Assembly (NCBI GenBank): GCA_963977445.1
Contig: CAXBPH010000169.1
Span: forward strand, 1 to 15,133
Direction: 5' to 3'
DNA from: an uncultured bacterium
GTDB taxonomy: Bacteria; Hydrogenedentota; Hydrogenedentia; Hydrogenedentales; JAEUWI01
Length of the DNA: 15,133 nucleotides
A model generated the notes under the pieces. That model had not been told where the DNA came from, made no database searches, and saw nothing but the letters and a program-made list of their open reading frames with translations. Both the position numbers and the translations under genes were made by a program. Below, in pieces: positions 630 through 912 of the stretch. Positions within the stretch are counted from its first letter, which is position 1. Each line of letters starts with the position of its first letter.

Positions 630-812
630 TCAGGGATTCTTGGTAGCCTTCGAGACTCTTCCGAACAGACTATCCGCCTCATCGAAGAATTGCCCCTCCT
701 TCGTTGTGGTCCGGTCAACCCCGCCTTTTACGGATGCTGCGGGGATGGATTCCTTCTTGGGGTCGTCTGCGATATCTTTCAATTCGACGATACGTTTTCC
801 CTTTTCAGACAT
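630..812 (-). CDS. 60-aa small protein: double-glycine-type leader (…SVKGG) plus a core containing FFDEADSLFGR
   Basis: ATG start with AGGAG 10 nt upstream, its own TTGACA-N17-TACACT promoter, and charged, protein-like composition. Confidence 0.8.
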   Translation of the reverse strand: MSEKGKRIVELKDIADDPKKESIPAASVKGGVDRTTTKEGQFFDEADSLFGRVSKATKNP

Positions 813-883
813 GATTCAACGGCTCCTACATGAAGTTTCGGTCCGTAGACGCCCGGTTCGAACGTCCAATCACTGCTCTATTA

Positions 884-912
884 AGTGTATTCTCAACAGG
901 GCGATCTGTCAA
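884..912 (-). promoter_or_regulatory. sigma70-type promoter for the 60-aa gene
   Basis: Minus strand: TTGACA (912-907), 17-nt spacer, TACACT (889-884). Confidence 0.75.

What the first reader, a model, noticed from the sequence alone, without database searches (positions are those of the whole stretch)
630..912. Stand-alone micropeptide gene: double-Gly leader fused to an AAA+ Walker-B-like core (possible mimic or inhibitor peptide)
Seen: a 60-aa ORF with a TTGACA-N17-TACACT promoter and an AGGAG RBS, so probably expressed. Residues 1-31 are a charged segment ending SVKGG. The 29-aa remainder, VDRTTTKEGQFFDEADSLFGRVSKATKNP, contains FFDEADSLFGR (657-689). Known: hydrophobic-x-GG ends the leaders cut by C39-peptidase ABC exporters (bacteriocins/RiPPs). 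hhFDEADxLFGKR is the Walker B region of classical AAA ATPases, including the Afp15/Pvc15-type ATPases of contractile injection systems. Inference: a processed, exported peptide presenting an isolated ATPase motif, acting as decoy, inhibitor or cargo signal, or an uncharacterised RiPP class. Caveats: the leader matches the classical LSxxELxxIxGG consensus only at its end, and no transporter or modifying enzyme is in the window apart from the adjacent broken GNAT.
Basis: partly seen in the sequence, partly recalled or inferred. Interest (0 to 1): 0.75.

Follow-up and report, generated by a model that had tools for sequence, protein, structure and literature searches.

The report
Conserved 60-residue peptide with ATPase-like motif
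This is a real but very rare small gene for a 60-residue, mostly disordered peptide that has a leader-like front half ending in Lys-Gly-Gly and a conserved helix spelling the same eleven residues as the catalytic strand of injection-system ATPases; what it does is still unknown.

Summary
Window 630-812 (-) encodes the 60-aa peptide exactly as described. It has a TTGACA-N17-TACACT site at 912-884, an AGGAG 10 nt before the ATG, VKGG at residues 28-31, and FFDEADSLFGR at 657-689.

An exhaustive HMMER search of 1.84 billion proteins found three true homologues. Each is exactly 60 aa, 38-45% identical, and aligns without gaps. All keep [VI]KGG and FFDEAD[AS]LFG[KR].

The same 11-mer is the Walker-B segment in 6 of 8 classical AAA ATPases I examined, five of them in contractile-injection-system clusters, including the Afp15 position in Serratia.

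The similarity stops at about 11 residues. Shuffle tests, a profile test and tblastn found no wider homology and no degraded ATPase in the flanks.

The leader reading has only weak support. One sub-threshold Pfam hit is to a graspetide-precursor family, and the nearest language-model neighbours are all leader-peptide families. The -7, -12 and -15 hydrophobic positions are missing, and the window holds no exporter or maturase.

Best reading (0.4): a new family of double-glycine-type precursor peptides. A role as an ATPase mimic is untested.

The parts
884..912 (-). sigma-70-like promoter, TTGACA-N17-TACACT
   Evidence: matches 10 of 12 positions. It is the only site in 300-1100, where shuffles gave a mean of 0.4. 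This is a consensus match only; transcription was not shown.
823..827 (-). Shine-Dalgarno-like AGGAG, 10 nt before the ATG
   Evidence: Read.
630..812 (-). 60-aa ORF (P0001) including the stop codon
   Evidence: Conserved as a 60-aa protein in three other lineages.
720..812 (-). Residues 1-31: charged, leader-like half with V-E-[LIV]-x-D-[LI] (residues 9-14), ending in [VI]KGG (residues 28-31, at 731..720)
   Evidence: K6, V9, D13, K29, G30 and G31 are invariant; mean pairwise identity is 36%.
690..719 (-). Residues 32-41: variable linker of fixed length (10 aa)
   Evidence: mean pairwise identity is 17%; no indels.
657..689 (-). Residues 42-52: FFDEADSLFGR, the conserved motif and predicted amphipathic helix, identical to the Walker-B segment of some AAA ATPases
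   Evidence: 89% mean identity; helix at residues 39-49; hydrophobic moment 1.2-1.6 at 100 degrees against 0.55-0.75 at 170 degrees; the same 11-mer in AAA ATPases.
633..656 (-). Residues 53-60: basic tail ending in an invariant proline
   Evidence: residues 52-60 (this tail plus the K/R that ends the motif) carry net charge +3 to +5. P60 is invariant.
480..551 (.). GC-rich hairpin about 80 nt downstream of the stop codon; a possible transcript end, but with no U-tract
   Evidence: 15-nt arms, 93% complementary; z = -3.48 for 440-640(-). One search found no canonical terminator.

Best explanation
The locus is a genuine, monocistronic micro-protein gene. It belongs to a very rare, previously unnamed family, with four members found in about 15 billion predicted proteins.

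The product is an intrinsically disordered 60-residue peptide with four parts:
- a charged, leader-like N-terminal half ending in an invariant [VI]-K-G-G;
- a 10-residue variable linker;
- an almost invariant amphipathic acidic helix, FFDEAD[AS]LFG[KR];
- a short basic tail ending in proline.

Most likely mechanism (inferred, not shown): it is a double-glycine-type precursor peptide. A C39-peptidase ABC exporter encoded elsewhere in the genome would cut after KGG and export a 29-residue hydrophilic peptide. That peptide's conserved helix would dock onto a conserved target, as a signalling or antagonistic peptide, possibly after modification.

The identity of the helix to the Walker-B segment of Afp15/Pvc15-type ATPases is real at the sequence level. 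It is confined to about 11 residues. It may reflect capture of a short piece of an ATPase gene, or convergence. Its functional meaning is open.
For: Shown:
- Three homologues of exactly 60 aa, 38-45% identical in every pair, with no gaps.
- Conservation is graded: leader 36%, linker 17%, motif 89%, tail 27%. This indicates purifying selection on a translated product.
- The gene has its own promoter-like site and an SD sequence. A downstream hairpin and a convergent upstream gene end make it monocistronic.

For the leader reading:
- GG at -2/-1 and V/V/V/I at -4 in 4 of 4 members; an acidic residue at -8 in 3 of 4.
- One member (P0003, residues 12-47) hits Pfam PF14406 Bacteroid_pep with E = 8.8e-4. 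That is 20 bits, below the 25-bit cut-off. PF14406 is a graspetide-precursor family (passage of PMC8939145).
- The same paper states that the GG peptidase is typically not encoded in the maturase loci.
- All rows shown that carry a Pfam family (7 of the 8 rows; the eighth has no common family) in the ESM Atlas named-cluster search are peptide-precursor or cross-linked-peptide families: type-A lantibiotic 0.85, ComC 0.82 twice, microviridin 0.82, GRASP_targ_2 0.79, QH-AmDH gamma 0.77, double-glycine bacteriolysin 0.76.
- AlphaFold2 on the family alignment: mean pLDDT 60, disordered except for a helix at residues 39-49.
Against: - The canonical leader hydrophobic positions are absent: -7 is A/A/S/S, -12 is K/L/S/R, -15 is D/D/A/D. 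The conserved hydrophobic cluster sits at -23 to -18 instead.
- 3 of 4 members hit no Pfam family even at E <= 10 (P0003's only hit is PF14406), and no member hits an NCBIfam leader or precursor model at that limit.
- No C39/PCAT exporter, ATP-grasp or radical-SAM gene is in the window. The window covers 14 kb on one side but only 0.6 kb on the other.
- No paralogue is in the window.
- The putative mature peptide is hydrophilic. Its net charge is 0 in 3 of 4 members, unlike class II bacteriocins.
- The complete absence of indels, and the fixed 10-residue spacing between KGG and the motif, fit a peptide that acts as one unit at least as well as a cleaved one.
- Genomic context of the three homologues could not be seen.
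Confidence: 0.4

Rival explanations
1. An unprocessed cytoplasmic micro-protein. It is a disordered 60-mer whose FFDEADxLFG helix folds on binding a conserved intracellular partner. KGG is a flexible hinge, not a cleavage site.
For: - There are no indels, and the KGG-to-motif spacing is fixed at 10 residues in 4 of 4 members.
- The strongest conservation is in a short amphipathic helix within a disordered chain.
- There is no exporter in the window.
- The canonical leader positions -7, -12 and -15 are not met.
Against: - The invariant [VI]KGG, the PF14406 hit and the peptide-precursor neighbours in the Atlas would then be unexplained.
- No partner has been identified.
Confidence: 0.3
2. A graspetide-type or other RiPP precursor. 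An ATP-grasp ligase encoded elsewhere would cross-link the invariant D44, E45 and D47 side chains to Ser, Thr or Lys residues of the linker or tail.
For: - PF14406, a graspetide-precursor family, is the only Pfam family hit by any member.
- Microviridin and GRASP_targ_2 clusters are among the nearest named Atlas clusters.
- The acidic triad is invariant, and every member has at least one Ser or Thr in residues 32-41.
- A highly conserved core is usual for graspetides (recalled, not from a call).
Against: - No Ser, Thr or Lys donor column is conserved in residues 32-60, and residue 52 is K in only 2 of 4 members.
- No ATP-grasp gene is in the window.
- The strings FFDEAD, DEADALF and DEADSLF are absent from the 11 supplementary files of the graspetide census PMC8939145.
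- The Pfam hit is below its cut-off and occurs in 1 of 4 members.
Confidence: 0.12
3. A mimic, decoy or regulator of Afp15/Pvc15-type AAA ATPases. The captured Walker-B segment would let the peptide engage such an ATPase or its partners, as an inhibitor or as a minimal cargo signal.
For: - The 11-mer FFDEAD[AS]LFG[KR] is identical to the Walker-B segment in 6 of 8 AAA ATPases examined (L002, L003, L005, L007, L008, L009). It is not identical in L004 and L006.
- 5 of the 6 plasmid loci lie in annotated contractile-injection clusters.
- The A/S and K/R alternatives are the same in the peptides and in the ATPases.
- My rough composition estimate (own arithmetic, not a tool result) gives about 0.03 chance occurrences of this 11-mer in a library of that size.
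- Pvc15 loads cargo through 50-70-aa disordered N-terminal signal peptides (passage of PMC11495950).
Against: - No similarity beyond the motif. Tail shuffle test: 470 of 2000 shuffles reach the observed score. Whole-peptide Smith-Waterman shuffle test: 51 of 300 for the summed score, and 221, 256, 37 and 12 of 300 for the single members. N-terminal slices against an AAA profile: best E = 0.041, and that hit aligns to the Walker-B itself.
- In the model the motif is a helix, not a strand, and only two hydrophobic residues precede the DE.
- No AAA ATPase or injection-system gene is in the window.
- FFDEAD also occurs in unrelated helices, such as the CheA P1 domain.
- Co-occurrence with injection systems could not be tested.
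Confidence: 0.1
4. Not a functional gene: a chance ORF, or the relic of a decayed AAA ATPase gene.
For: - Codon-usage scoring does not separate the frame from its antisense frame.
- Local G+C is lower than in the flanks: 0.51 against 0.58-0.62.
- The family is tiny.
- The neighbouring GNAT gene is frameshifted.
Against: - Four equidistant lineages keep the start, the stop, the length and the graded conservation.
- tblastn of a 704-aa AAA ATPase against the window finds only 16 residues, at 689..642, and no collinear flank.
- No longer protein contains the peptide: none of 4405 candidates scored E <= 10, and the exhaustive search of all lengths found none.
Confidence: 0.03

Closest known systems
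Double-glycine leader peptides cut by C39-peptidase ABC exporters (ComC pheromones, class II bacteriocin and lanthipeptide precursors)
   Same: - A small, stand-alone precursor-sized gene.
- A charged N-terminal half.
- Invariant GG with a hydrophobic residue at -4, and an acidic residue at -8 in 3 of 4 members.
- ComC, lantibiotic and 'double glycine cleavage site' clusters are the nearest named neighbours in the ESM Atlas, at 0.76-0.85.
   Different: - No hydrophobic residues at -7, -12 or -15.
- The 31-residue leader has its hydrophobic cluster 18-23 residues before the GG.
- No curated model is matched.
- No exporter is in the window.
- The region after the GG is the most conserved part, and it is hydrophilic and acidic.
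Graspetide precursors (Pfam PF14406 Bacteroid_pep; microviridin family)
   Same: - PF14406 is the only Pfam family hit by any member: P0003, E = 8.8e-4, covering the leader, the GG and the start of the core.
- The core is conserved and rich in acidic residues.
- About half of graspetide precursors carry a GG motif, and their peptidase is usually encoded elsewhere (passage of PMC8939145).
   Different: - The hit is below the gathering score, and 3 of 4 members do not hit.
- No Ser, Thr or Lys donor positions are conserved.
- No ATP-grasp gene is nearby.
- The motif is not found in that paper's supplementary tables.
Walker-B segment of Afp15/Pvc15-type AAA ATPases of extracellular contractile injection systems
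   Same: - Eleven consecutive residues, FFDEAD[AS]LFG[KR], are identical, with the same A/S and K/R alternatives.
- Pvc15's Walker B is described as part of a 'DEAD' motif (passage of PMC11495950).
   Different: - The peptide has no Walker A, no P-loop fold and no Pfam AAA hit.
- Polar residues replace the first two hydrophobic residues of the strand.
- It is predicted to be a helix.
- The flanks are unrelated.
Small disordered proteins that fold on binding a partner, for example Pup binding the Mpa ATPase (recalled, not tested)
   Same: About 60 residues, disordered, acidic, with a single helix-forming segment.
   Different: There is no sequence relationship. The GG is internal, not C-terminal. 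No ligase or ATPase partner is known.

Membership tests
Double-glycine (C39/PCAT-processed) leader peptides | GG (or GA/GS) at positions -2/-1 | tested here: met
   G30 and G31 are invariant in 4 of 4 members.
Double-glycine (C39/PCAT-processed) leader peptides | Hydrophobic residue at -4 | tested here: met
   V, V, V, I.
   -7 is A/A/S/S, -12 is K/L/S/R, -15 is D/D/A/D.
Double-glycine (C39/PCAT-processed) leader peptides | Cognate C39-peptidase ABC exporter encoded nearby or in the genome | tested here: not met
   None among the window's ORFs (Pfam). The rest of the genome and the homologues' contigs could not be read.
Double-glycine (C39/PCAT-processed) leader peptides | Match to a curated precursor or leader model | tested here: inconclusive
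   Pfam: 1 of 4 members hits PF14406, at 20 bits against a 25-bit cut-off. NCBIfam: no leader family for any of the 4 members.
Graspetide precursors | ATP-grasp ligase in the locus | tested here: not met
   No ATP-grasp domain in the window. Only 0.6 kb is visible on one side.
Graspetide precursors | Conserved acceptor (Asp/Glu) and donor (Ser/Thr/Lys) positions in the core | tested here: inconclusive
   The acceptors D44, E45 and D47 are invariant. No donor column is conserved in residues 32-60.
Classical AAA ATPases (PF00004) | P-loop domain with Walker A, and Walker B as four hydrophobic residues followed by DE | tested here: not met
   The peptide is 60 aa, with no Pfam AAA hit at E <= 10 and no PDB hit at E <= 10. 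Only FF precedes the DE; the residues before it are Q/S and G/S/A.
Relic of an AAA ATPase gene | Flanking DNA collinear with a full-length ATPase in some frame | tested here: not met
   tblastn of the L002 ATPase against the window gives one 16-aa match (12 of 16 identical) and no collinear flank.

The most novel reading that the evidence does not exclude
The family is a micro-protein built around a Walker-B segment captured from an Afp15/Pvc15-type ATPase. It would use that segment to engage such ATPases or their partners, as a trans-acting inhibitor or as a minimal, leader-bearing cargo or plug. That would make it the first peptide known to work by displaying an isolated catalytic motif of a AAA machine.
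Probability: 0.08. Interest if true: 0.85.

Novelty: new variant of a known kind. Interest (0 to 1): 0.55.

Why it matters
Genes of 60 codons are routinely missed by annotation. This one has no Pfam, NCBIfam, PADLOC, PHROGs or PDB relative. Full-text searches for FDEADALFG and FFDEAD found no paper that describes it. Yet it is conserved, without a single indel, in four distant lineages.

If it is a double-glycine precursor, it adds a family whose conserved part is the product, not the leader. That would point to a conserved target.

If the identity with the ATPase Walker-B segment is functional, it would be a new way to regulate or exploit contractile injection systems, which are being developed as protein-delivery tools.

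Tried and rejected
**Family and structure searches**
- Family libraries for P0001: Pfam none, PADLOC none, PHROGs none. NCBIfam gave only a 13.8-bit match to a biotin-carrier model whose cut-off is 95 bits.
- PDB search by sequence: none at E <= 10.
- PDB search by family profile: only the CheA P1 domain, at E = 2.8. It has TFFDEADELL and SIKGG in the reverse order, so I treated it as chance.

**Homologue searches**
- Word-index search at similar length: P0001 itself only.
- Profile search: the same four members out of 22 candidates.
- Search of longer proteins: 0 of 4405 candidates.
- P0002 (747 aa, E = 6e-9) is a repeat protein that matches 25 residues many times over. I rejected it as an artefact.
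- tblastn of the peptides against plasmids (all four) and phages (P0001 only): no family member. The only hits were AAA ATPases matching through the motif, or noise at E >= 0.3.
It returned only two AAA ATPase loci and one saccharopine-dehydrogenase-like gene. The window's own genome and any further family members may have been missed.

**Tests for wider similarity**
- Homology beyond the motif: tail shuffles 470 of 2000, Smith-Waterman shuffles 51 of 300, AAA profile against N-terminal slices no better than E = 0.041. All three are negative.
- Internal repeat at an offset of 21 residues (the stretch ending in VKGG against the FFDEADxLFG motif): this is the top offset, but 32 of 300 column shuffles reach its score.
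- A FFAT-like, clamp-binding or KGG stress-repeat reading: considered from memory only. I dropped each because key positions do not fit and Pfam shows nothing.

**Not done or not possible**
- Complex prediction was not sent. The host's own ATPase or exporter is not available, and the tool advises against stand-ins from another host.
So the contigs of the three homologues, and the rest of the source genome, stayed unchecked.

Full report
**1. The observation**

The stop-to-stop frame begins one codon before the ATG, so there is no alternative start.

Reading: VKGG (residues 28-31) lies at 731..720, and FFDEADSLFGR (residues 42-52) lies at 689..657.

The sigma-70-like site TTGACA-N17-TACACT is at 912..884(-). 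It was the only such site in 300-1100, where shuffles gave a mean of 0.4. AGGAG lies at 827..823, 10 nt before the ATG. No canonical terminator was found. A 15-bp GC-rich hairpin sits at 480-551, about 80 nt after the stop. Further on lie the inverted repeats at 111-190 and the end of a convergent plus-strand ORF at 120. The gene therefore looks monocistronic.

Taken alone, the ORF is not remarkable:
- 40 ORFs of at least 30 aa overlap window 1-3000.
- Codon scoring does not separate it from its antisense frame: -4.072 against -4.104 per codon.
- Local G+C is 0.51, against 0.58-0.62 in the flanks.

**2. It is a conserved gene**

The word-index search found only P0001 itself. The exhaustive HMMER search of 1.84 billion representatives found five proteins at E <= 1e-3:
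- P0001 itself;
- a 747-aa repeat protein that matches 25 residues many times over, which I rejected as an artefact;
- three proteins of exactly 60 aa (P0003, P0004, P0005; E = 3.4e-6, 5.4e-6, 3.8e-4).

The four peptides align without a gap, and 17 of 60 columns are invariant: M1, K6, V9, D13, K29, G30, G31, F42, F43, D44, E45, A46, D47, L49, F50, G51, P60. All six pairs are 38-45% identical, so these are four roughly equidistant lineages.

Conservation is graded by region:

| Region | Residues | Mean pairwise identity |
|---|---|---|
| Leader-like half | 1-31 | 36% |
| Linker | 32-41 | 17% |
| Motif | 42-52 | 89% |
| Tail | 53-60 | 27% |

A profile search of 5.8 billion clusters returned the same four out of 22 candidates. 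A search among longer proteins returned none of 4405 candidates. The family is very small.

**3. What the peptide looks like**

P0001 has no hit in Pfam, PADLOC, PHROGs or the PDB. NCBIfam gave only a 13.8-bit match against a 95-bit cut-off.

AlphaFold2 on the family alignment gives mean pLDDT 60. The chain is disordered apart from a helix at residues 39-49.

The motif is amphipathic as a helix: the hydrophobic moment is 1.2-1.6 at 100 degrees against 0.55-0.75 at 170 degrees. The part after the GG has net charge 0 in 3 of 4 members and +5 in one. Residues 52-60, the tail plus the motif's final K/R, carry net charge +3 to +5.

**4. The leader question**

Relative to a cut after G31:

| Position | Residues in the four members | Canonical expectation met? 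|
|---|---|---|
| -4 | V, V, V, I | yes (hydrophobic) |
| -8 | acidic in 3 of 4 | mostly |
| -7 | A, A, S, S | no |
| -12 | K, L, S, R | no |
| -15 | D, D, A, D | no |

The conserved hydrophobic cluster V-E-[LIV]-x-D-[LI] lies at -23 to -18 instead.

No NCBIfam leader family matches any member. In Pfam, one member (P0003, residues 12-47) hits PF14406 Bacteroid_pep at E = 8.8e-4. That is 20 bits, below the 25-bit cut-off. PF14406 is one of the graspetide-precursor families listed in PMC8939145. The same paper says about half of such precursors carry a GG motif, and that the C39 peptidase is typically not encoded in the maturase locus (passages). Its 11 supplementary files do not contain the strings FFDEAD, DEADALF or DEADSLF.

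The ESM Atlas named-cluster search shows eight rows. Seven carry a Pfam family, and all seven are leader-bearing or cross-linked peptide families; the eighth has no common family. They are type-A lantibiotic 0.85, ComC 0.82 twice, microviridin 0.82, GRASP_targ_2 0.79, QH-AmDH gamma 0.77 and double-glycine bacteriolysin 0.76.

The window holds no exporter, peptidase, ATP-grasp or radical-SAM gene. Its other genes are a frameshifted GNAT, a GH78 rhamnosidase, rpsI, rplM, a yaaA-like gene, a metallophosphatase, a 945-aa ankyrin-repeat protein and unnamed ORFs. No paralogue of the peptide is in the window (the next best window segment has E = 1.3).

**5. The ATPase motif**

L002 and L003 encode a 704-aa protein with a C-terminal PF00004 AAA domain. 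Its best PDB relatives are p97/VCP, and its Walker B aligns with theirs. It reads VLFFDEADSLFGRRSEV, so eleven residues are identical to P0001.

Searching plasmids with that AAA domain found 154 records. I read six of them. Counting L002 and L003, the exact pattern FFDEAD[AS]LFG[KR] is present in 6 of 8 ATPases:
- present in L002, L003, L005 (Serratia entomophila), L007 (Nostoc), L008 (Mycetohabitans) and L009 (Aureibacter);
- absent in L004 (Rhodococcus), which has ...AIFGK;
- absent in L006 (Halogeometricum), which has LFDEADSVFGD.

Five of the six plasmid loci lie in annotated contractile-injection clusters. Their neighbours include a tape-measure gene, DUF4255/Pvc16, sheath, tube, PAAR and baseplate genes. 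In Serratia the ATPase sits in the Afp15 position. L002 itself showed no such neighbours within its locus. PMC11495950 (passages) describes the Pvc15 Walker B as part of a 'DEAD' motif. It also reports that cargo loading uses 50-70-aa disordered N-terminal signal peptides.

**6. How far the similarity goes**

It covers only about 11 residues.
- tblastn of the L002 ATPase against the whole window gives one 16-aa match at 689..642 (12 of 16 identical) and no collinear flank. The locus is therefore not a decayed ATPase gene.
- Some BLAST alignments looked longer, for example P0005 residues 13-59 against L008 with 22 of 52 columns identical. Controls do not support them:
  - Shuffling the tails: 470 of 2000 shuffles reach the observed score.
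  - Shuffling everything except the motif: 51 of 300 for the summed Smith-Waterman score. The single members give P0001 221, P0003 256, P0004 37 and P0005 12 of 300.
  - N-terminal slices against a profile of seven ATPases: no better than E = 0.041 in a 12-sequence search. That one hit aligns P0003's own DEADAVKG to the Walker B.
- A possible internal repeat at an offset of 21 residues is the top offset, but 32 of 300 column shuffles reach its score.
- In the peptides, polar residues replace the first two hydrophobic residues of the ATPase strand.
- FFDEAD also occurs in unrelated helical contexts. The CheA P1 domain was the only PDB hit of the family profile, at E = 2.8. A saccharopine-dehydrogenase-like protein in L001 ends in ...AFFDEADALFGK.

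My own rough composition estimate, which is not a tool result, gives about 0.03 chance occurrences of the full 11-mer in a library of that size. Pure chance therefore seems unlikely. Capture of a short ATPase gene segment, or convergence on an acidic amphipathic helix, are both open.

**7. Verdict**

- **Shown:** a real, conserved, stand-alone micro-protein family of four members. Each has a leader-like half ending in KGG and a near-invariant helix that is identical to an ATPase Walker-B segment.
- **Inferred (0.4):** it is a double-glycine-type precursor, processed and exported by machinery encoded elsewhere, whose conserved 29-residue product binds a conserved target.
- **Rivals:** an unprocessed cytoplasmic binding peptide (0.3), a graspetide-type RiPP (0.12), an ATPase mimic (0.1), and a non-gene or relic (0.03).

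**8. What stayed unchecked**

- The contigs of the three homologues and the rest of the source genome.
- Any experimental evidence of expression, cleavage or binding.
- Papers: for PMC8939145 I saw passages and ran a supplement search. For PMC11495950 I saw passages. All other papers I saw only as search listings.

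Noticed in passing
window 936-1681 (-): The GNAT acetyltransferase is split over two frames. The N-terminal part (1681..1424) and the Pfam-positive C-terminal part (1478..939) join if one base is gained or lost near 1480-1490. 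This is either a frameshift or an assembly error. Its stop codon lies just upstream of the peptide's promoter.
   Followed up: partly
window 111-190 and 480-551: GC-rich inverted repeats: 23-nt arms at 119-141 and 168-190, nested 13-nt arms at 111-123 and 139-151, and 15-nt arms at 480-494 and 537-551. They lie between the peptide gene and a convergent ORF that ends at 120. They look like REP elements or terminators, but have no U-tract.
   Followed up: partly
L001 1625-2728 (+): A 367-aa saccharopine-dehydrogenase-family protein from a Pseudomonadota MAG ends in ...NGAFFDEADALFGK followed by the stop codon. That is the same 11-mer as in P0004 and P0005. The protein's length equals that of a solved homologue (365 aa), so the motif may not be an added tail. 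I could not test whether its orthologues share it.
   Followed up: partly
PDB chains 8c5v_C and 1i5n_A: The CheA P1 (HPt) domain carries both TFFDEADELL and ...AHSIKGGA. These are both of the family's motifs, but in reverse order and with the phospho-accepting His that the peptides lack. E = 2.8, so this is probably coincidence.
   Followed up: no
P0003 residues 21-31 against 42-52: In P0003 the end of the leader (…KADEADAVKGG) resembles its own motif (FFDEADALFGR) in 6 of 11 positions. Across the family, an offset of 21 residues is the best self-match, but it is not significant: 32 of 300 shuffles reach its score.
   Followed up: yes
window 8758-11595 (+): A 945-aa protein made almost entirely of ankyrin repeats (Pfam Ank_2, E = 5e-100). 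Such proteins are often seen in bacteria that live with eukaryotes (that association is recalled, not from a call).
   Followed up: no
L002 5024-8337 (+): The Lachnospiraceae AAA ATPase that carries the identical 11-mer is preceded by 910-aa and 184-aa ORFs with no Pfam family. No sheath, tube or baseplate genes lie within its locus, so not every ATPase of this type sits in a recognisable injection-system cluster.
   Followed up: partly
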